Below are positions 1,979-55,422 of a DNA stretch of 64,000 nucleotides, one piece after another. How positions within the stretch are numbered: the stretch's first letter is position 1; each line of letters opens with the position of its first letter. Source of the DNA: Escherichia virus TH47; sequence record MT446416.1; one strand, given 5' to 3'. The notes beneath the pieces were generated by a model. That model ran no database searches, was not told the origin of the DNA, and worked only from the letters and a program-made list of their open reading frames with translations. The translations under genes were made by a program, and so were the position numbers.

Positions 1979-2557
1979 TTATAAAAATGTTAAATCTTCA
2001 GTACTTAATTGTGATAATTTGCCATCATATTCAACTTCAACATATATTGTTTGGTCTGAAATTATAACTACTCTTCTAATAACACCATAAACCACGACAT
2101 TTTTGTTGTAATGGAATTTAACCTCTGCACCAATAAGTTTTTTTGATAGGAAGTTACGTACCTGTTTGATCTGGTCGGCAAGTATAGAATTGATGGTTTT
2201 TTTCATAATATATAAATCATACAATGATTTTTTAATATCATCATGCATATTATTAACTTTTGGATCAGTTTCATCAAGTGCATTGTGAACATTCACTTGC
2301 ATTTGAACTTCAACTTTAAGTTCTTCTTGTTCTTCAGGAATAACTTTTTCAGGTTCTGGTGTAACCTGATCACGTTTATCATTAATCATGAAGTTGATAT
2401 TACGTTCACCAAGTACTAATAAAGTAACAATGGTGAGTACTGGGGTCAGTACTAGACTAAGTAGTACATAGCCGATAACACTACGGTTGTAATTGTAGGC
2501 AAGCATACCTGCAATGACTACACCTAGTACACTAATAACTGCTGCGATTGTTAACAT
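1979..2557 (-). CDS. membrane protein, two N-terminal TM helices
   Basis: N-terminal 50 aa strongly hydrophobic (MLTIAAVISVLGVVIAGMLAY ... VLLSLVLTPVLTIVTLLVLG). Confidence 0.55.
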   Translation of the reverse strand: MLTIAAVISVLGVVIAGMLAYNYNRSVIGYVLLSLVLTPVLTIVTLLVLGERNINFMINDKRDQVTPEPEKVIPEEQEELKVEVQMQVNVHNALDETDPKVNNMHDDIKKSLYDLYIMKKTINSILADQIKQVRNFLSKKLIGAEVKFHYNKNVVVYGVIRRVVIISDQTIYVEVEYDGKLSQLSTEDLTFL

Positions 2558-34498: not shown

Positions 34499-35085
34499 AG
34501 TAGATCCTTATACATTGCATGTATTCTTACAATGTCTCTGTAATAACTCATATCTTCACGATTATCATTAAAAACAGTAACACTGAATACAGCAGTACTA
34601 ATTGAACTATCAACAATGTACTCTTTTAATTTATTATAAAGATATATGCACTTGGCAGATGTATCATCCCACATAAGACTATTTTGAAAGATGTTTTCTT
34701 CTGTGTTAGGATATAAGTACTGCTCAATCTTGTACCCCAATGAACTATCACAGTTTTTATATACAGAAATAGATGGGACATTCATATTGCACATAATACT
34801 AATAACATTATCATTGTATGTAGAAATTAAACTGGTACTGGATGCTACACTTTCATCATAATTCAGTACTGAAATTCTTGCATTATCTGTGCAGTACAGA
34901 TGTTTCATTCCACCTCTCATAGCCATAGTAAGAAATTTATCAGTGAACCATATTCCTTTTGTTTTCAGTATAGTTTCATGCATAAGATAAGTTTCAATGA
35001 AGATTTTTACACGCTCAAATGCCAAGTCAAGTTCATTGTACATAACGGATATCCTTCTGTAAAGAATCAATATATTCTTTAACAA
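34489..35085 (-). CDS. family-A paralog
   Basis: Motif EENIFQNSLM. Confidence 0.65.
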   Translation of the reverse strand: MLKNILILYRRISVMYNELDLAFERVKIFIETYLMHETILKTKGIWFTDKFLTMAMRGGMKHLYCTDNARISVLNYDESVASSTSLISTYNDNVISIMCNMNVPSISVYKNCDSSLGYKIEQYLYPNTEENIFQNSLMWDDTSAKCIYLYNKLKEYIVDSSISTAVFSVTVFNDNREDMSYYRDIVRIHAMYKDLLCY

Positions 35086-35224
35086 CTTGTTCCTGATACT
35101 GTGTGCCCAAATACATCAGTACTTTTAATTCTTTGAACTCAGTACTATATGAGTCGGTTTGCATCATTTTAGAAGAATATATATTGAATAGTTTAGCAAT
35201 ATCATCTTGGTCTATTATTTTCAT
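35033..35224 (-). CDS. family-C paralog (outlier inside family-A array)
   Basis: Motif LGTQYQEQ. Confidence 0.6.
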   Translation of the reverse strand: MKIIDQDDIAKLFNIYSSKMMQTDSYSTEFKELKVLMYLGTQYQEQVVKEYIDSLQKDIRYVQ

Positions 35225-35420
35225 ATATTCTCTTCTGGATTAGTTCCTGTAAGTGCTGAATATAACCCTTCATTGCAACATCCTGTTTGTTAGAGCCAAC
35301 GAAGAACAATAGCTTAAAGTCATGGTAATCCATTTTTGGTTTAGTAGTGAACCATATGTCCCACACTGCACTCACAGTTCTCATGTATTCAATTCGATTA
35401 AATGTTTTTGAATACTTCAT
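35202..35420 (-). CDS. family-C paralog (outlier inside family-A array)
   Basis: Motif VGSNKQDV. Confidence 0.55.
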   Translation of the reverse strand: MKYSKTFNRIEYMRTVSAVWDIWFTTKPKMDYHDFKLLFFVGSNKQDVAMKGYIQHLQELIQKRIYENNRPR

Positions 35421-35934
35421 CGATGTTCATCGCCAATAAGTTAATATACAAATTACTGTTAAATGCAATCTGCAATTCCATATAGAACTGAATGATAGCA
35501 TAGTCAGGGTCAGTACACGATAGTTGAAAACACTGTTCGTCAAATGCATTGTAATTGTACTTAGGGATGTGAATTTCACGCTTCAAATCAGGTTGACCCC
35601 ACTTCATCGCATACACACCAATGTTATTGTTCTTTTTCCTTTTCTTAAATGTTAATTGTTGAATATTTCCAGCGTTGTCTAGGAAAATAGTATTATTCGA
35701 CACAGGTGCACCAATAGAAAACAATGATGTATCAATGACGTGTTTCTCACGTATCTCACACTTCTGGAATGCACCATTCCCTTGTAACAGTTTATGGAAA
35801 TCGTACTTCTCACTAATAACTGTACTAGGAACAATTAATCCAGTACTGCATTTTTTCAGTACTGGTACGATAGTGCGAATCTTTTTTGATAAATCTTGTA
35901 ATGCATCATAATCATTAATGTTAATTTTTCTCAA
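35398..35934 (-). CDS. family-A paralog
   Basis: Motif DEQCFQLSCT. Confidence 0.65.
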   Translation of the reverse strand: MRKININDYDALQDLSKKIRTIVPVLKKCSTGLIVPSTVISEKYDFHKLLQGNGAFQKCEIREKHVIDTSLFSIGAPVSNNTIFLDNAGNIQQLTFKKRKKNNNIGVYAMKWGQPDLKREIHIPKYNYNAFDEQCFQLSCTDPDYAIIQFYMELQIAFNSNLYINLLAMNIDEVFKNI

Positions 35935-36377
35935 AAGGATGCCTCTTCTATAGTAACGAAATCAACTAACCTATCAAGTTTTTCAGTGTCTAGATAAAAT
36001 ATATCCAGTACTGACTTCTGATATAGTACACTAAATGTACATAGATTGTCAAGTGTTCCTTCATTATAAACAGTACTTCCCTGGAAGTACCCTTCTTCTG
36101 TACTCAGAGATAAAATATCAGAAATTTTAAAAGATTCTTCATACTCATGACGCTCTATCGTAACTTCATCATATTTTCTGTTCAATGAAATATAATCATA
36201 TGCTATCTCAATAGTACTACAATTATTGCCATCCGTATCAAATAAAGAATCAATTGTAATCTTCGTGCCATTAGAAACTTCTCTTAGTTCATCATCTACA
36301 TAATCAGGATAGTCCTTTAAGAACTGAACAACGCGTAGAATATCATTTGCTTTCTTGATTGCACTTTCGTAACTCAT
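35931..36377 (-). CDS. family-A paralog
   Basis: Motif EEGYFQGSTV. Confidence 0.65.
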   Translation of the reverse strand: MSYESAIKKANDILRVVQFLKDYPDYVDDELREVSNGTKITIDSLFDTDGNNCSTIEIAYDYISLNRKYDEVTIERHEYEESFKISDILSLSTEEGYFQGSTVYNEGTLDNLCTFSVLYQKSVLDIFYLDTEKLDRLVDFVTIEEASF

Positions 36378-49425: not shown

Positions 49426-49690
49426 ATTTCTCTTTATTAGCTTGTTTGGTTTTATAGTGAATGAAATCTATTAATGTAATCAAGTACAACGTCAAATAGT
49501 ACTCTTGTTGATCTGTACCTAATGATACAAAGAACTTGTGCTCATAGATTAAAACCTGTTTCTCTTCAAATGGACATTTAATCCTCTGTATAGGCTTAAG
49601 TAAATGATAGTACTTATTAAATCTATGATACATTTCTAGTTCTGTCAGTACTTTCATATTAAACACATACTCCATTAGCAGTAGCATCAC
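49415..49690 (-). CDS. family-C paralog
   Basis: Motif LGTDQQEY. Confidence 0.6.
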   Translation of the reverse strand: MMLLLMEYVFNMKVLTELEMYHRFNKYYHLLKPIQRIKCPFEEKQVLIYEHKFFVSLGTDQQEYYLTLYLITLIDFIHYKTKQANKEKYEN

Positions 49691-49880
49691 GTAAAGCTGT
49701 CAAATACTTCTGTACGGCTTGCTCTTGCTTATTTGTACCTAAAAGTATATACATCCATAATTCACTGTAATGTACATCTTGTGTATAAGGGTTGTTGTAA
49801 CTTTTTGATACTATAACATCAAATTCAGATGCATGAACCCTTGTGAACTTAAGAATATCTTTTTGTGTTATGATTCTCAT
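49659..49880 (-). CDS. family-C paralog
   Basis: Motif LGTNKQEQ. Confidence 0.65.
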   Translation of the reverse strand: MRIITQKDILKFTRVHASEFDVIVSKSYNNPYTQDVHYSELWMYILLGTNKQEQAVQKYLTALRDATANGVCV

Positions 49881-50092
49881 ATCTTTTCCTGTATAAGCTT
49901 CTTAAGAATCTCAATATGTGAATTAACAGTTCTTTATTGATGTTGTGTTCCTAAGAGTGTCAGTACTATCATCTCTGAACGCAAAAGATTTTTTTCAAGT
50001 TCACTGATATCAGTTCTTGTATCAAGTACTAAAAATTCTTGACTATTTTTTCTGAATAATGCCAAGTACTCTTGGTTTGATATTACCTTCAT
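49877..50092 (-). pseudogene. family-C copy interrupted by an in-frame TAA
   Basis: ATG at 50090-50092 (ATGA overlap with upstream stop) reads MKVISNQEYLALFRKNSQEFLVLDTRTDISELEKNLLRSEMIVLTLLGTQHQ then TAA at 49934-49936, then in frame RTVNSHIEILKKLIQEKI to TGA at 49877; neighbour has QERFVNEHIRALL at the same place. Confidence 0.55.
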
Positions 50093-50319
50093 AGTTTATC
50101 CCTGATGCCATTTAAAAGTGCTCTAATATGCTCATTGACAAAACGCTCTTGGGAATCTGTGTCTAGGGTGAGAAGCATTCTTAAATCTGAACTTTTGATA
50201 TGATATTCTAAATCATTATTTGATTCTTGCATCAGTTTCTGAAAGGATGAGAAGTTTGCTGCCATTAGTTCAATGTATTCTGCTGTTCCTAGGGGTTTGT
50301 GTATGTGCTGTCTGTGCAT
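50089..50319 (-). CDS. family-C paralog
   Basis: Motif LDTDSQER. Confidence 0.6.
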   Translation of the reverse strand: MHRQHIHKPLGTAEYIELMAANFSSFQKLMQESNNDLEYHIKSSDLRMLLTLDTDSQERFVNEHIRALLNGIRDKL

Positions 50320-50531
50320 TTTAATTGTATTACCCTTTTGAGTGTATTAATGTAATTATACACATTGGCTTCTTGATAGTTAGTTCCTAGAGTAGCTTGA
50401 ACGTAGATTTCATTTAACTTAATAATTTTATCCGTATCTGGTAGTTTTGATGTGTTAATGGCAAATAACTTCAAAAACAGTCCATTTATGATTGTTCTGT
50501 ATTCTTCTCCGGTAATGATTCGCATTTGCAT
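50289..50531 (-). CDS. family-C paralog
   Basis: Motif LGTNYQEA. Confidence 0.65.
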   Translation of the reverse strand: MQMRIITGEEYRTIINGLFLKLFAINTSKLPDTDKIIKLNEIYVQATLGTNYQEANVYNYINTLKRVIQLKCTDSTYTNP

Positions 50532-50737
50532 GTTCTCAGTACTGATTCTTTAAGTTCATTGATGTAGCACTCTACATATTCTTCTTGTAGGTTTGTTCCG
50601 ATATGTAACAGTACTCTTAAATCTGCTCTCAGTACTTCTTTGTCATCTTCATCTATATCAGACAGTGTTATGTTTAAGAATTTACTTGAACTCTCTATAA
50701 GTAATATTACTGAATCACCTTTGCTTAAAATTTTCAT
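50486..50737 (-). CDS. family-C paralog
   Basis: Motif IGTNLQEE. Confidence 0.65.
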   Translation of the reverse strand: MKILSKGDSVILLIESSSKFLNITLSDIDEDDKEVLRADLRVLLHIGTNLQEEYVECYINELKESVLRTCKCESLPEKNTEQS

Positions 50738-50945
50738 AATCTCTTTTTGCTTTCCTCGCCAAAAGGTACATATACGATTCTTCGTATTGTGCTTGGTAGT
50801 TTGTGTTTAAGAGTCGAAACAACTTCTGTTCTGCTAGAACGAGTTGCTTATCTTCATAACAACGATAGCGTATCAACTTTTTGTATTCGATGTTGATTAC
50901 ATCCATTACTATAAGCCTATGTTCATCATCAGTCAAGTGTTTCAT
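50715..50945 (-). CDS. family-C paralog
   Basis: Motif LNTNYQAQ. Confidence 0.6.
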   Translation of the reverse strand: MKHLTDDEHRLIVMDVINIEYKKLIRYRCYEDKQLVLAEQKLFRLLNTNYQAQYEESYMYLLARKAKRDYENFKQR

Positions 50946-51183
50946 GCTTTTTTCTTTTCCTGATGTTCTTAGTTAAAAGGTATATTAGTTTTCTATTGTA
51001 TTCTTCCTGATAGTTTGTTCCTAATAGTGCAAGAAGTTTTGCTTCAACTAGAGCTAATTGACGTTCTTCAAATGTGTGTTCCAGTATATACTTTGGGTTT
51101 GATTTTTTAGCGTAAGCACTATTAGTTTTCATTACAATCTTATGATATTCATTAACTGTTAGGATTTTTAAATTCTTGAGCAT
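50929..51183 (-). CDS. family-C paralog
   Basis: Motif LGTNYQEE. Confidence 0.65.
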   Translation of the reverse strand: MLKNLKILTVNEYHKIVMKTNSAYAKKSNPKYILEHTFEERQLALVEAKLLALLGTNYQEEYNRKLIYLLTKNIRKRKKHETLD

Positions 51184-51409
51184 GTATCTTTTCCTTTATA
51201 GAGAATTTAAGATATCGAAGCATACTTTCAATGTAATACTCTTGTCTGTCAGTTCCAAGAAAGTACATGAGTTGAATGTATAAAACTTCTGCACTCCTTT
51301 CGGCATGTGACTTGTTTGTGTCGTTTGGAAGTTGATTTGTAAGTTTTCTGGATTTAATTAATCGTTCTTTTAACTCATCGTCTGTTAAGTATATCATTTC
51401 ACTTTTCAT
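51152..51409 (-). CDS. family-C paralog
   Basis: Motif LGTDRQEY. Confidence 0.65.
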   Translation of the reverse strand: MKSEMIYLTDDELKERLIKSRKLTNQLPNDTNKSHAERSAEVLYIQLMYFLGTDRQEYYIESMLRYLKFSIKEKIHAQEFKNPNS

Positions 51410-51629
51410 TTACTTTTTCCTTAATACTCATTACAAGATGTTCAATCATATTTTGAACCATAAATTCTTGTTTATCAGTTCCAAGAACGTATGGTAGCTT
51501 CTGAAACAATACATTCGCAGACATTTCATATATTGATTGATTTGGAACGAACTTAAGAGTAATGTTATTGGCTTTTAACATCTTCTCTTGAAATTCTTCA
51601 TTCGTTAAGTATATCATTTCATTTTGCAT
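51399..51629 (-). CDS. family-C paralog
   Basis: Motif LGTDKQEF. Confidence 0.65.
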   Translation of the reverse strand: MQNEMIYLTNEEFQEKMLKANNITLKFVPNQSIYEMSANVLFQKLPYVLGTDKQEFMVQNMIEHLVMSIKEKVNEK

Positions 51630-51855
51630 TTACTTTTTCCTTAATAGTAATTTTGAGATATTTAATTATACGTTCAATGTGATACTCTTGTCTATCAGTT
51701 CCCAGAAGATATGGTAGTGATTGGAATAAAACTTCTGCACTCCTTTCTGCTGGGGTTTGGTTTGTGTTGTGAGGAAGTTTATTTGTAAGTCTTTTGGATT
51801 TAGATAGTCTTTCTGATAACTCATCATGTGTTAAGTATATCATTTCCTTTTGCAT
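51619..51855 (-). CDS. family-C paralog
   Basis: Motif LGTDRQEY. Confidence 0.65.
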   Translation of the reverse strand: MQKEMIYLTHDELSERLSKSKRLTNKLPHNTNQTPAERSAEVLFQSLPYLLGTDRQEYHIERIIKYLKITIKEKVNAK

Positions 51856-52083
51856 TTACATTCTCTCATGTGCATTTTGGGTTAAAAGATCAATCCAGAT
51901 TTCCACATATCGTTGTTGGTGTTGCGTCCCTAACAGTACACCTAACTTGGCTTCGGACTCTAATATCATTCTGGTTTTGAACGGTAGACTTTGAAATCCT
52001 ATTGTAGCATCTAATTTGGTAATTGCATATTTGATTCGGATGAATCTTTCTTGTAATGTGATGTTGATCATTTCACAGTACAC
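51856..52083 (-). CDS. family-C paralog
   Basis: Motif LGTQHQQR. Confidence 0.65.
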   Translation of the reverse strand: MYCEMINITLQERFIRIKYAITKLDATIGFQSLPFKTRMILESEAKLGVLLGTQHQQRYVEIWIDLLTQNAHERM

Positions 52084-52346
52084 CTTAGTGGTTGGGTCAT
52101 TTGATAAAAGTACAGCTTACCTTTGATTTCCATTAGTAATTCATTTAATACGCGTTGGACCTCTGGTTCTTGATAGTTTGTCCCTAACAATGCACCCATC
52201 TTTAGCTCACGATACATAATCATCTTCTTACGGTGTTGAATTTCTGGGTTGTGATAGATTTCATTTCGTTTAGTTGAGATTTTAGCCATGCGTTCATGAT
52301 ATTCATCTGAATTTAAATTAATCATTTTTATTCTCCAAAGCATCAC
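52068..52346 (-). CDS. family-C paralog
   Basis: Motif LGTNYQEP. Confidence 0.65.
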   Translation of the reverse strand: MMLWRIKMINLNSDEYHERMAKISTKRNEIYHNPEIQHRKKMIMYRELKMGALLGTNYQEPEVQRVLNELLMEIKGKLYFYQMTQPLRCTVK

Positions 52347-52563
52347 ATTTATTTTCGATACAATTCATGAGTTCTCTAAGATAGTTTTTTACCTTACCTG
52401 ACTGATAGTTCGTCCCTAGGAAGTTGCACAACACGGCTTCTATGATTTTGATTTTCCTGATATCAGGCTTCAATTTTTTGTTATTGAAGATTTGAATCCT
52501 TATATCTCTGGATGCATTTAAACGTTTTTGATATTCATGGTAAGTTAAATTAATCATTTTCAT
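52318..52563 (-). CDS. family-C paralog
   Basis: Motif LGTNYQSG. Confidence 0.65.
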   Translation of the reverse strand: MKMINLTYHEYQKRLNASRDIRIQIFNNKKLKPDIRKIKIIEAVLCNFLGTNYQSGKVKNYLRELMNCIENKCDALENKND

Positions 52564-52778
52564 TTACGTTTAACCTCTCGCTGGAGGGCATCAATTAACA
52601 TCAGTACAGCATTCTCTTGATAGTTTGTTCCTAAGAATGAAAGCATCTTTATATCAGACACTAAAATCAACTTCTTTGAGCGTTCAATAATGTTACTATT
52701 ATAAACGGCGTTACGTGCTGGATAAGTTTTTGCAAGACGAACATAATATTCATCTTTACTTAAATTAATCATTTGCAT
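52560..52778 (-). CDS. family-C paralog
   Basis: Motif LGTNYQEN. Confidence 0.65.
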   Translation of the reverse strand: MQMINLSKDEYYVRLAKTYPARNAVYNSNIIERSKKLILVSDIKMLSFLGTNYQENAVLMLIDALQREVKRK

Positions 52779-52987
52779 TTACTTTTAACCTCTTTAATTA
52801 GTGCATCAACCCATAGGTCTACATACATTTGTTGATAGTTTGTCCCCAATAGTGCACCTACATAGAGTTCAGCTTTCATTGCGTGCTTTAGGTCAATAGG
52901 GATGCTCTTATCGTTTGATATCATTCTCCTTCTGCTGCCACATGTTTTCAGAAGCTTAACATATTCGTAACCTATTAATTTTCTCAT
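52769..52987 (-). CDS. family-C paralog
   Basis: Motif LGTNYQQM. Confidence 0.65.
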   Translation of the reverse strand: MRKLIGYEYVKLLKTCGSRRRMISNDKSIPIDLKHAMKAELYVGALLGTNYQQMYVDLWVDALIKEVKSKCK

Positions 52988-53199
52988 TCTTTTGATATCA
53001 CCTTGTTGCGTAAGGCACTTAACAATACGTCAGTGTAGATGTTTTGATAGTTTGTTCCTACGAATACACCCAACTTCATTTCAGCTATTATAACACATTT
53101 GTCCTCTTGTGCAATAGACTTGTCTAAAGAAATACTAACAACTTTCCTTCTTATAGCTTGTAACCTCCAATGATACTGATACTCATTTAGGGTTATCAT
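52984..53199 (-). CDS. family-C paralog
   Basis: Motif VGTNYQNI. Confidence 0.65.
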   Translation of the reverse strand: MITLNEYQYHWRLQAIRRKVVSISLDKSIAQEDKCVIIAEMKLGVFVGTNYQNIYTDVLLSALRNKVISKE

Positions 53200-53434
53200 T
53201 CTCTCGTCTCCATATCTCGGTTCTAATGTGTTGGCATTGTGCTTCGATGAACATATCTATTGATTTGGCAATTGCTTTTTTATCAGTGCCTGTCATCAGT
53301 ACAAGCATCTCGGCCTCACAGTGAAGTAAACGCATGATATCATAGGGTAATATTTCAGATACCGTGTCATAGTGTTTCTGTGCCAGTGTCTGCAATAGTT
53401 TACAATACATTTTGTGGTTCATTCTTTGTCGCAT
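53183..53434 (-). CDS. family-C paralog (divergent)
   Basis: Motif TGTDKKAI. Confidence 0.55.
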   Translation of the reverse strand: MRQRMNHKMYCKLLQTLAQKHYDTVSEILPYDIMRLLHCEAEMLVLMTGTDKKAIAKSIDMFIEAQCQHIRTEIWRRENDNPK

Positions 53435-53691
53435 TGTTTATTCCATTCTTTTTTGGCCTTGGTGGTTTTATATTGGATTTGGTTTCTTAATGCTGATAAG
53501 TATCGTTGAATGAACAGATCTTGATAGTTTGTCCCAATGAATTTCATAAGATAAACATCACCGTTGATAACATCCACTTCAGGTACACCATGTAATGCAT
53601 TGTTATTTCTAAGGGTTCTAATAAGAGAGAACAGGGCAGTTTGATACTCAACTCCTGATAAAATCTTCATATTTTGCGTGGATGTATTCAT
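53419..53691 (-). CDS. family-C paralog
   Basis: Motif IGTNYQDL. Confidence 0.65.
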   Translation of the reverse strand: MNTSTQNMKILSGVEYQTALFSLIRTLRNNNALHGVPEVDVINGDVYLMKFIGTNYQDLFIQRYLSALRNQIQYKTTKAKKEWNKQCDKE

Positions 53692-53905
53692 CTAGTTTAT
53701 CCTGTATAACATTCGTTAATTGATCGATATATTCTGTGCAAAACTTATCTTGATATTGAGTCCCCATAAAGTACAGCAACCATAGCTCATCAACTTTAGC
53801 TCGCATTTGGTTCCATGTAAGGGTGGGGTCATCGTAGACTATCCTTGCGACTGGGGTTAGTTTACGAACTATAGTTTCATATTCATCTTGTGTTAAGCGT
53901 CTCAT
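53648..53905 (-). CDS. family-C paralog
   Basis: Motif MGTQYQDK. Confidence 0.65.
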   Translation of the reverse strand: MRRLTQDEYETIVRKLTPVARIVYDDPTLTWNQMRAKVDELWLLYFMGTQYQDKFCTEYIDQLTNVIQDKLDEYIHAKYEDFIRS

Positions 53906-54126
53906 TTACCTAAATCCCTGACATGACATTTTAAGGCCGTGATGTGGTTGTCTACCATAACCTCCTGATAGTTTGTCCCTACAAATGGTATTAATGTTGA
54001 GTCTGTTAGTATAACATACTTTTCATTGGATGTTAGTGATTCATCATCGTAAACTTGAAGTCTAAAGTTCTTCCCTTGTTCTAATCGTTTAAGATATTCT
54101 TGAGTGTTTATGTCTTTCATTTGCAT
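53902..54126 (-). CDS. family-C paralog
   Basis: Motif VGTNYQEV. Confidence 0.65.
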   Translation of the reverse strand: MQMKDINTQEYLKRLEQGKNFRLQVYDDESLTSNEKYVILTDSTLIPFVGTNYQEVMVDNHITALKCHVRDLGK

Positions 54127-54335
54127 TTGTCCATAATGTATTTCTTGAGTGCAACTATGTGCTCATGGACATAACTTTCCTGATAGTTTGTCCCCAGTAC
54201 AGCCATCATGCGTACATCGGTGGTGTTTATCTTGTGTTCAAATCGTGTTAAGCCTTTTTTTTGTAAAAGGGTATCGTATTTGTTTAATGCATCAATGATA
54301 ATTCTCATCTTCTCTATATTACTTAAATGTTTCAT
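54117..54335 (-). CDS. family-C paralog
   Basis: Motif LGTNYQES. Confidence 0.65.
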   Translation of the reverse strand: MKHLSNIEKMRIIIDALNKYDTLLQKKGLTRFEHKINTTDVRMMAVLGTNYQESYVHEHIVALKKYIMDKCK

Positions 54336-54547
54336 ATTTTGTTTCTATGGTGCTCCATGAGTGTTTCTGTGTAGTTCTTCATGAATTTATCTTGAAACTG
54401 TGTCCCGATGAATTGTAAGACCCATAGTGCATATATTCGTTCTTCCTTGTCCACCAAAGATAAATGTATATTATTATAAATCCTTTGTTCTTTATCTAGG
54501 GTAGACAGTACACGAGCCTCGTATTCACCTTGTGTTATTTTAATCAT
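54332..54547 (-). CDS. family-C paralog
   Basis: Motif IGTQFQDK. Confidence 0.65.
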   Translation of the reverse strand: MIKITQGEYEARVLSTLDKEQRIYNNIHLSLVDKEERIYALWVLQFIGTQFQDKFMKNYTETLMEHHRNKI

Positions 54548-54759
54548 AGTTTGCTCTTAATGTATTTCTTGAGTGCATTTATATACACATTCAAGAAATG
54601 CTCCTGATAGTCTGTTCCCAAGAATGCACCCAATAGTATATCATTTTCCAATACCTCGGCTAAGTTTAAATCAGAAGTCTCTTCATATACTATGAGGATT
54701 TCAAGTTGTCTGGCAGCAACGCGTTCGGTATATTGATGTGAGTTTGTAATGATATTCAT
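54544..54759 (-). CDS. family-C paralog
   Basis: Motif LGTDYQEH. Confidence 0.65.
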   Translation of the reverse strand: MNIITNSHQYTERVAARQLEILIVYEETSDLNLAEVLENDILLGAFLGTDYQEHFLNVYINALKKYIKSKL

Positions 54760-54967
54760 AGTTTACTCTTAATGTGGTTCTTGAGTGCAAATAAGTATTC
54801 CCCTACATAATACTCCTGAAAGTCTGTATCCAAAAATGCACCCATGAGTAAATCCTTCTCCATTGCCCTTGATAAGTTAAGGTCTACGCTTGAAAGGTAT
54901 ATCAGTAAGATTTCAGCCTGTGCCGAATTGAAACGTATCTTATATTCTTCTGGTGTTAAAAAATCAT
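54756..54967 (-). pseudogene. family-C copy with frameshift in a T6 homopolymer
   Basis: ATG at 54965-54967 reads ATG ATT TTT TAA; shifting one base gives an open family-C frame ...DFLTPEEYKIRF...AFLDTDFQEYYVGEYLFALKNHIKSKL to TGA at 54756; a seventh T would restore MIFLTPEEY. Confidence 0.55.
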
Positions 54968-55170
54968 AGTTTACTCTTTATATCTTTTATTAAATGTAAA
55001 ATCCAATCATTAACAAAACTTTCTTGGAAGTTGGTTCCCAGTCCAGCCATCATCCACCACTCCGATAGAATAAACTTTTTTTCATCCCTAGATAACTCAT
55101 CTGGTATATATATATTCTTTCTATATTCGATCATAAGATTATATAGTTGAAATTGTGTGATAATTTTCAT
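54964..55170 (-). CDS. family-C paralog
   Basis: Motif LGTNFQES. Confidence 0.65.
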   Translation of the reverse strand: MKIITQFQLYNLMIEYRKNIYIPDELSRDEKKFILSEWWMMAGLGTNFQESFVNDWILHLIKDIKSKL

Positions 55171-55364
55171 AGTTTACCCGTTATATCTTCAATTAAATAT
55201 GAAATCCAATCCTTGACATACCTTTCCTGAAAGTTAGTTCCAATGAATAGTGCCATAACCAATTCACGCTTATAGGCCATACCACGTTCATGTGACTTAT
55301 ACATTATCATAGCCATGTTATTGATAAGTCTTTCGTGATGTTCTGCTTGAGTTAAAATACGCAT
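55167..55364 (-). CDS. family-C paralog (first gene of array)
   Basis: Motif IGTNFQER; GGAG SD upstream. Confidence 0.65.
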   Translation of the reverse strand: MRILTQAEHHERLINNMAMIMYKSHERGMAYKRELVMALFIGTNFQERYVKDWISYLIEDITGKL

Positions 55365-55394
55365 AGGGACTCCATTAAAAATAATATCAATCCT

Positions 55395-55422
55395 ATAATA
55401 TACGATTCGTATAAAAAGTCAA
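55395..55422 (-). promoter_or_regulatory. candidate promoter TTGACT-16-TATTAT upstream of the family-C array
   Basis: Minus-strand TTGACT ... TATTAT about 30 nt upstream of the 55364 start. Confidence 0.35.

What the first reader, a model, noticed from the sequence alone, without database searches (positions are those of the whole stretch)
49877..50092. Family-C copy interrupted by a single in-frame TAA
The reading frame is otherwise intact and family-like on both sides of the stop (LLGTQHQ-TAA-RTVNSHIEILKKLIQEKI; the neighbour has QERFVNEHIRALL at the same place), with ATGA coupling to both neighbours. It could be a recent nonsense mutation, a sequencing error or stop-codon readthrough. Decay inside the array supports ongoing birth-and-death turnover.
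Basis: seen in the sequence. Interest (0 to 1): 0.5.

Follow-up and report, generated by a model that had tools for sequence, protein, structure and literature searches.

The report
Nonsense-mutated copy in phage paralog array
One of about 30 tandem copies of a small gene of unknown function in an E. coli jumbo phage carries a premature TAA stop where every known relative has a glutamate codon; this is an ordinary broken gene (or, less likely, a sequencing error), not a recoding signal.

Summary
On the minus strand, 50092..49877 is a 72-codon frame whose codon 53 (window 49934-49936) is TAA. It shares ATGA start/stop overlaps with both neighbours.

The window comes from an Asteriusvirus (PBECO4/121Q-like E. 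coli jumbo phage). The gene belongs to phrog_4148 (function unknown), which forms a tandem array of about 27 copies at 49418-55418.

All 32 intact orthologous DNA sequences I fetched have Glu at this codon (GAG, or GAA in two). So do all 33 full-length homologues found in a 5.8-billion-protein search. The truncated 52-aa product occurs on a single public contig of 352,450 bp, presumably the source genome.

A confident AlphaFold model (pLDDT 96) shows a four-helix domain, and the stop removes helix 4.

TAA is the commonest normal terminator in the window. The stop is not conserved, and no suppressor tRNA is known in this genus. Readthrough is therefore not supported.

The best reading is a lineage-private G-to-T nonsense mutation in a dispensable paralog. 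A consensus error cannot be excluded without reads. It is disfavoured because all four disrupted genes in the window are 80 aa or shorter, while every orthologue pair above 80 aa is intact.

Copy content of the array differs strongly between relatives, which supports turnover. Interest is low.

The parts
49877..50092 (-). Interrupted copy of the phrog_4148 small-protein family: 71 sense-codon positions plus the terminal TGA, with codon 53 = TAA. Orthologue of 121Q gp339.
   Evidence: Translation. phrog_4148 match at E 2.5e-20 when repaired. Orthologues annotated as intact 71-aa CDS in 121Q, phAPEC6, JP4, SP27, G17, Sharanji and others.
49934..49936 (-). Premature ochre stop codon TAA (codon 53), followed by A. 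It replaces the conserved Glu of the family motif G-T-x-x-Q-E.
   Evidence: Sequence. The codon is GAG in 30 and GAA in 2 of the 32 intact orthologue DNA sequences tabulated (codon counts), and GAG in the 3 metagenome contigs. The first-position T is private to the window. The family alignment shows E at this column in most paralogs.
49937..50092 (-). Remaining translatable ORF of 52 codons, covering helices 1-3 of the predicted four-helix domain.
   Evidence: the ORF listing 49934..50092, 52 aa. The identical 52-aa product P0034 is on one NCBI contig of 352,450 bp. AlphaFold2 helices are H6-15, H17-24, H31-45.
49880..49933 (-). Untranslated remnant: 18 in-frame codons (RTVNSHIEILKKLIQEKI) that would encode helix 4. 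It contains no in-frame ATG, GTG or TTG.
   Evidence: HMM positions 55-71, E 0.002. Helix H52-70 in the model. No window-private substitution in this stretch.
50089..50092 (-). ATGA overlap: the TGA stop of the upstream paralog (50089..50319) overlaps the ATG of the interrupted copy.
   Evidence: Sequence 'tcat' on the + strand. ORF coordinates.
49877..49880 (-). ATGA overlap: the original TGA stop of the interrupted copy overlaps the ATG of the downstream paralog (49659..49880).
   Evidence: Sequence 'tcat' on the + strand. ORF coordinates.
49883..49890 (-). Shine-Dalgarno-like AGGAAAAG, with the AGGA core 6 nt upstream of the downstream gene's ATG. This should allow independent initiation now that coupling is broken.
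   Evidence: Read from the sequence (+ strand 'cttttcct'). Its function is inferred, not tested.
49418..55418 (-). The tandem array of about 27 phrog_4148 paralogs in which the interrupted copy sits. It includes the two disrupted copies. Further copies lie at 47333-47811 and 35036-35426.
   Evidence: HMM six-frame scan. Alignments.

Best explanation
This is a genuine, lineage-private nonsense allele of a dispensable accessory gene. In an ancestor carrying GAA (Glu53), a single G-to-T transversion produced TAA. Ribosomes now terminate after Gln52 and release a 52-residue fragment that lacks the fourth and longest helix of a compact four-helix domain. The copy is therefore most likely non-functional, an incipient pseudogene.

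The downstream paralog loses termination-reinitiation coupling. It keeps its own AGGA ribosome-binding site 6 nt before its ATG, and only 54 nt become untranslated, so polarity should be slight.

The event is one instance of ongoing decay and replacement in a roughly 30-copy tandem family whose content differs from phage to phage.

Shown: the stop, its absence in all relatives, the family membership, the predicted fold, and the array variability. Inferred: the GAA intermediate, loss of function, weak polarity, and that the base is real rather than a consensus error.
For: (1) TAA sits at codon 53 in an otherwise intact 72-codon frame.

(2) All 32 intact orthologue DNA sequences carry Glu there: 24 phage records plus 8 Logan/ENA contigs, 20 distinct haplotypes (GAG, or GAA in 121Q and phAPEC6). 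So do 3 further metagenome contigs. All 33 full-length homologues in the 5.8-billion-protein search read QHQERTV. The 52-aa form occurs on one contig only.

(3) The orthologues are under purifying selection: pN/pS is 0.43 overall and 0.44 for codons 54-71. The lost C-terminus is therefore normally constrained.

(4) The AlphaFold2 model of the closest intact orthologue has pLDDT 96.3 and four helices. The stop removes H52-70.

(5) The window has only three private substitutions in the gene: two synonymous ones upstream and the nonsense change. There are no indels and no private change in the 3' remnant.

(6) I compared about 165 EC.P1 CDS with the window, giving 138 clear orthologue pairs. The window shows disruptions in only four genes, all 80 aa or shorter. 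That size class holds 12% of the compared coding residues, so four uniformly placed errors would all fall there with P about 2e-4. This is the pattern expected if selection filtered real mutations.

(7) The same orthologue is independently frameshifted in BF17 (and in the unverified CMSTMSU record), which is consistent with dispensability.

(8) Array content is highly variable. Each of six relatives has 7-9 copies with no counterpart of at least 70% identity in the window, and three window copies have no counterpart of 50% or more in any of the six.
Against: No reads are available, so the base call itself is unverified. The source genome could not be retrieved from the searchable collections.

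Three of the window's other disruptions are 1-nt indels, two of them in T/A homopolymer runs. That hints at some homopolymer-type assembly error in this record.

A second GAA-to-TAA change occurs in a similar A-rich context at about 58905. This could be coincidence, a mutational signature, or a systematic miscall.

Relative to the nearest available orthologues (GAG), TAA needs two changes in one codon.

'Recent' rests on few sites: about 0.75 private changes would be expected in the 54-nt remnant even under neutrality.
Confidence: 0.72

Rival explanations
1. Sequencing or assembly (consensus) error: the phage actually carries GAA or GAG and the gene is intact.
For: The T is unique among all orthologues, and the truncated product is seen on one contig only. 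The same window has 1-nt indels in T6/A7 runs in other small genes, an error-prone context. A second G-to-T change making TAA lies in a similar AA_AAA context.
Against: A G-to-T substitution outside a homopolymer is not a typical consensus error. Every orthologue pair longer than 80 aa (107 of the 138 pairs, 88% of compared coding residues) is free of stops and frameshifts. All four disrupted genes are 80 aa or shorter, with P about 2e-4 if errors fell uniformly. An error-ridden relative looks very different: CMSTMSU has multiple frameshifts in this one gene.
Confidence: 0.2
2. Programmed stop-codon readthrough or suppression: the TAA is decoded as an amino acid, so a full-length protein is still made.
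For: The frame downstream is intact and family-like. The base after the stop is A, a somewhat weaker termination context than U in E. coli (general knowledge, not tested here).
Against: The stop is absent from every orthologue, so it is not a conserved recoding site. TAA is the commonest genuine terminator in this window (75 of 151 ORFs, 29 of them TAA-A). There is no tRNA gene in the window. Published Asteriusvirus tRNA sets (Ser, Met, Asn, Thr, Arg, Gly) contain no suppressor (PMC13070987, PMC11895373). UAA is read by both release factors and has the lowest basal readthrough in E. coli (established knowledge).
Confidence: 0.02
3. The truncation is a functional allele: the 52-aa three-helix fragment is stable and has a retained, altered or dominant-negative activity. 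Alternatively, inactivation of this particular copy was itself selected, for example to escape a host system that senses it.
For: The same orthologue is independently disrupted in BF17, and in CMSTMSU if that record is reliable. The upstream 52 codons show only synonymous private changes.
Against: The fragment loses 19 of about 55 helical residues of a single compact domain. The C-terminus is as constrained as the rest of the protein in relatives. One genome out of more than 35 is what drift in a redundant family would give. No function is known for any member.
Confidence: 0.05

Closest known systems
phrog_4148 (PHROGs v4, unknown function), e.g. Escherichia phage 121Q gp339 (AIT14229.1) and its paralogs gp335-342
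   Same: End-to-end profile match (E 2.5e-20 with the stop repaired). Same length of about 71 aa, same G-T-x-x-Q-E motif, and the same position and ATGA-coupled arrangement in the tandem array.
   Different: This copy has a premature TAA at the motif's Glu. The encoded product is 52 aa instead of 71 and lacks helix 4.
Spontaneous ochre (UAA) nonsense alleles of non-essential phage genes, as classically seen in T4 and lambda genetics
   Same: A single-base change converts a sense codon (here Glu GAA) to UAA. This gives a truncated polypeptide, and the phage stays viable because the gene is dispensable or redundant.
   Different: This is a natural allele in a sequenced isolate, not a selected laboratory mutant. 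No suppressor host is involved. Whether the base is real has not been verified from reads.
Birth-and-death evolution or 'genomic accordion' behaviour of tandem multigene families in large DNA viruses (poxvirus K3L amplification, ASFV multigene families, paralog sets reported for Rak2-like jumbo phages such as CBB, PMC5259590)
   Same: Many tandem paralogs, strong between-strain differences in which copies are present, and occasional inactivated copies.
   Different: No function, selective agent or recent amplification has been demonstrated. The family is restricted to Asteriusvirus-like phages (89 clusters at 50% identity among 1.84 billion representatives). Its fold has no informative structural neighbour.

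Membership tests
phrog_4148 small-protein family (Asteriusvirus tandem array) | Significant full-length match to the family profile | tested here: met
   phrog_4148 E 2.5e-20, residues 1-71 against profile 1-71 of 74, with the stop replaced by Glu. The window-derived HMM hits both pieces co-linearly.
phrog_4148 small-protein family (Asteriusvirus tandem array) | Conserved motif L-G-T-x-x-Q-E followed by an amphipathic C-terminal helix | tested here: met
   LLGTQHQ is present and the helix-4 codons are present in frame. T49 is invariant, and G48, Q52 and L63 are at least 90% conserved in the 33-sequence alignment. The motif's E is the codon hit by the stop.
phrog_4148 small-protein family (Asteriusvirus tandem array) | Uninterrupted ORF of about 65-90 codons | tested here: not met
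   TAA at codon 53. It is a disrupted member, not an intact one.
Pseudogene or null allele by nonsense mutation | In-frame stop at a position that is a sense codon in orthologues | tested here: met
   Glu (GAG or GAA) in 32 intact orthologue DNA sequences and 3 further metagenome contigs.
Pseudogene or null allele by nonsense mutation | Orthologues are real genes under purifying selection, including the part lost | tested here: met
   pN/pS is 0.43 for the whole gene and 0.44 for codons 54-71 across 20 haplotypes. The constraint is moderate.
Pseudogene or null allele by nonsense mutation | The stop exists in the DNA of the phage (not a consensus error) | not testable with these tools
   No reads. 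The source record is not in the searchable collections. Indirect support comes from the size distribution of disrupted genes.
Pseudogene or null allele by nonsense mutation | Loss of function of the truncated product | not testable with these tools
   Inferred only from removal of helix H52-70 of a four-helix domain.
Programmed stop-codon readthrough or recoding | Stop codon conserved at the site among relatives | tested here: not met
   None of the 35 orthologous DNA sequences has a stop there.
Programmed stop-codon readthrough or recoding | Cognate suppressor tRNA or genome-wide reassignment of the codon | tested here: not met
   No tRNA in the window. TAA terminates 75 of 151 ORFs. Relatives' tRNA sets lack suppressors (PMC13070987, PMC11895373). 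The rest of this phage's genome was not available.
Birth-and-death tandem multigene family | Tandem paralogs with between-genome gain, loss or replacement of copies, plus inactivated copies | tested here: met
   About 27 copies in tandem. There are 27-32 family hits per relative, with 7-9 lacking a counterpart of at least 70% identity in the window. Two copies are disrupted in the window, and the orthologue is frameshifted in BF17.

The most novel reading that the evidence does not exclude
Inactivation of this particular array member is recurrent and adaptive. The phrog_4148 array would be a fast-evolving arsenal of small four-helix host-interaction proteins with a fold not represented among solved structures. 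Individual copies would be knocked out (TAA here, frameshift in BF17) when a host defence comes to recognise them, making the stop a footprint of an arms race rather than neutral decay.
Probability: 0.06. Interest if true: 0.5.

Novelty: new member of a known kind. Interest (0 to 1): 0.12.

Why it matters
On its own it matters little. It is a routine nonsense allele (or a base-call error) in one of about 30 redundant accessory genes, and annotators should flag it as a disrupted or pseudo CDS rather than a 52-aa gene.

Its modest value is as a data point. Together with a second frameshifted copy and the mosaic copy content among relatives, it shows that this Asteriusvirus-specific orphan family evolves by rapid turnover. 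That marks the array as a candidate host-interaction module worth functional study.

Tried and rejected
(1) Finding the source genome or a near-identical independent assembly to check the base. The exact look-up of the 52-aa product and of the neighbouring protein found no encoding contig. DNA pattern scans of IMG/VR, JGI metagenomes and GTDB genomes found only more distant, intact relatives. There was no match in complete E. coli genomes or in plasmids. The product is indexed from one NCBI contig of 352,450 bp, but its DNA was not retrievable.

(2) The 51-aa homologues P0035 and P0036 (35 contigs) first looked like recurrent truncations. Inspection showed intact 71-codon ORFs, so the short products are a gene-caller start choice. 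Rejected.

(3) Gene conversion from a paralog as the source of the stop. The paralog with LGTQHQ-Q (51856..52083) has a Gln codon, not a stop, at that position. The flanking CAA at gene position 149 is shared with the nearest orthologues rather than being private. No support.

(5) Internal restart for the C-terminal piece. There is no in-frame ATG, GTG or TTG in the 18 remnant codons.

(6) The promoter and terminator scan of the array gave counts at chance level and no minus-strand terminator, so it says nothing decisive about polarity.

Full report
WHAT IS THERE

The minus strand of window 50092..49877 is a 72-codon frame reading MKVISNQEYLALFRKNSQEFLVLDTRTDISELEKNLLRSEMIVLTLLGTQHQ*RTVNSHIEILKKLIQEKI*. 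The internal stop is TAA at 49934-49936, followed by A. The start ATG (50092-50090) overlaps the TGA of the upstream gene 50089..50319. The mechanically listed ORF is 49934..50092, 52 aa.

GENOMIC SETTING

The window belongs to an Asteriusvirus, the PBECO4/121Q-like group of roughly 350-kb E. coli jumbo phages. Window 1-25000 is 96-97% identical to phages EC.P1 and vB_Ec-M-J. The region around the finding is only about 86-92% identical to any of 33 deposited genomes. All substantial ORFs lie on the minus strand.

The interrupted frame is one member of a family of proteins about 70 aa long. A profile built from the window's own copies finds about 27 tandem members between 49418 and 55418. It finds two more at 47333-47811 and two weaker ones at 35036-35426. 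The two halves of the interrupted copy hit HMM positions 1-52 (E 3e-13) and 55-71 (E 0.002), co-linear and in one frame. The family is phrog_4148, function unknown. Pfam, NCBIfam, PADLOC and a PDB sequence profile give nothing significant. A profile search of 1.84 billion representatives returns only 89 clusters, nearly all between 52 and 102 aa (two outliers at 122 and 269 aa). This is a narrow orphan family.

COMPARISON WITH RELATIVES

I fetched the orthologous locus from 26 phage records. I also used 3 metagenome contigs found by DNA pattern. Eight Logan/ENA contigs came from exact look-up of homologous proteins.

- In 24 of the 26 phage records the orthologue is an intact 71-codon gene with Glu at codon 53: GAG in 22 and GAA in 121Q and phAPEC6.
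- The other two, BF17 and the 'UNVERIFIED_ORG' record CMSTMSU, carry frameshifts in this gene.
- The metagenome and Logan contigs all have GAG.
- A search of 5.8 billion proteins gave 33 full-length homologues, all reading QHQERTV. It gave exactly one 52-aa form, identical to the window's product and present on one NCBI contig of 352,450 bp, presumably the source genome.
- The 51-aa homologues seen on many contigs are start-codon choices of the gene caller. Their loci hold intact 71-codon ORFs.

The closest orthologues (L032-L036) differ from the window at 9-10 of 216 positions. Across 20 distinct orthologue haplotypes, the window has just three private substitutions: two synonymous ones (gene positions 33 and 86) and the G-to-T at position 156 that creates the stop. 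None lies in the 3' remnant. The most economical path is GAA to TAA. This is an inference, because the nearest relatives have GAG.

WHAT THE STOP DOES

Orthologues show pN/pS of 0.43 overall and 0.44 for codons 54-71, so the lost segment is normally constrained.

I built an AlphaFold2 model of the closest intact orthologue, using the window's paralogs as the alignment. It is very confident (mean pLDDT 96.3, pTM 0.80) and shows four helices: 6-15, 17-24, 31-45 and 52-70. The conserved G-T-x-x-Q sits in the turn before helix 4. The stop replaces the motif's Glu and deletes all of helix 4. I infer that the 52-aa fragment is non-functional.

The remnant has no in-frame start codon. The downstream paralog has AGGAAAAG, with the AGGA core 6 nt before its ATG (49883-49890), and only 54 nt become untranslated. 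I infer little polarity. The simple terminator scan finds no minus-strand terminator in the array.

REAL MUTATION OR ERROR?

Reads are not available. As an indirect test I compared every annotated EC.P1 CDS across the syntenic roughly 69 kb with the window by tblastn. Of 138 clear orthologue pairs, the window shows disruptions in four genes:

- the finding itself;
- another family copy at 54762-54966, where ATGATTTTTTAA replaces the relative's ATGATTATATTA, a 1-nt deletion just after the start;
- an 80-aa gene at 58691-58933, with GAA-to-TAA at codon 10 plus an A6-to-A7 insertion;
- a 71-aa gene at about 40429-40632, with a frameshift.

All four are 80 aa or shorter. That class holds 12% of the compared coding residues. 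Every pair longer than 80 aa (107 of the 138) is free of stops and frameshifts. Four uniformly placed errors would all land in the small class with P about 2e-4. That is the signature of real mutations filtered by selection, not of a noisy assembly.

Against this, the indels in T/A runs are classic error contexts. The two G-to-T changes also share an AA_AAA context. I therefore put a real nonsense allele at about 0.72 and an error at about 0.2.

READTHROUGH

TAA ends 75 of 151 non-overlapping minus-strand ORFs in the window, 29 of them as TAA-A. It is therefore an ordinary terminator here. The stop is not conserved in any relative. The window has no tRNA gene. Published tRNA sets of the Asteriusviruses fEgEco12 and Sharanji (Ser, Met, Asn, Thr, Arg, Gly) contain no suppressor (PMC13070987, PMC11895373). 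From general knowledge, UAA is recognised by both RF1 and RF2 and has the lowest basal readthrough in E. coli. Readthrough is not supported.

TURNOVER OF THE ARRAY

Family hit counts in six relatives range from 27 to 32. For each window copy, the best counterpart in a given relative ranges from about 30% to 100% identity, in a mosaic pattern. Three window copies (54967-55170, 54335-54547, 47587-47784) have no counterpart of 50% or more in any of the six relatives. Each relative has 7-9 copies with no counterpart of at least 70% identity in the window.

VERDICT

This is an ordinary event: a private nonsense allele in a redundant, orphan paralog family of a known phage genus. The truncated product is already present in public protein collections. 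Novelty and interest are low. The only broader point is that the phrog_4148 array is a fast-turnover, genus-restricted family with a confidently predicted but unassigned four-helix fold.

Noticed in passing
window 54762-54966 (-): A second phrog_4148 copy is disrupted. The ATG at 54966-54964 reads ATG ATT TTT TAA, while the family frame continues one base out of register (…FLTPEEYKIRF…KSKL*). The orthologue in metagenome contig L028 reads ATGATTATATTAACACC (MIILTPEEYK…), so the window has a 1-nt deletion in a T-run right after the start codon.
   Followed up: yes
window 58691-58933 (-): An 80-aa hypothetical gene (EC.P1 XOD30678.1, 98.6% identical) carries a second GAA-to-TAA nonsense change at codon 10. 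It also has an extra A in an A6 run near the 3' end that shifts the last roughly 9 codons. Intact 80-aa versions are the norm in public data (clusters of 40 and 11 members).
   Followed up: partly
window ~40429-40632 (-): The counterpart of the EC.P1 71-aa gene XOD30613.1 is split between two frames in the window (MITFEEPEVV…NIYTRRRV* in one frame, then …EKTSLRLCAMKRIEEIKLSRLNK* in another). This is a frameshift relative to EC.P1. It has not been checked in other relatives.
   Followed up: partly
window 1979-2557 (-): The 192-aa ORF looks like a deletion chimera. Its first 102 residues are 100% identical to EC.P1 XOD30531.1, and the rest matches XOD30527.1 at 66%. The four EC.P1 genes between them, including the Ser/Thr protein phosphatase, are absent from the window.
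   Followed up: partly
L007 (phage BF17, MW822008) 724-894, and L026 (CMSTMSU, MH494197) 678-893: The orthologue of the interrupted gene is itself frameshifted in BF17, after ELEK and next to the A-run, and is annotated there as a 56-aa product. It is multiply frameshifted in the unverified CMSTMSU record. This is either independent disruption of the same gene or assembly errors.
   Followed up: partly
L031 (EC.P1) 35885-36090, corresponding to window 50715-50945: EC.P1 has an unannotated gap of about 205 nt in its array exactly where the window has an intact family copy. The copy may be unannotated or decayed in EC.P1.
   Followed up: no
window 55395-55422 (-): A sigma-70-like match (TTGACT, 16 nt spacer, TATTAT; 10 of 12) lies immediately upstream of the first array copy (55364). 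Overall promoter-like counts in the region are at chance level, so this is only a lead for the array's promoter.
   Followed up: no
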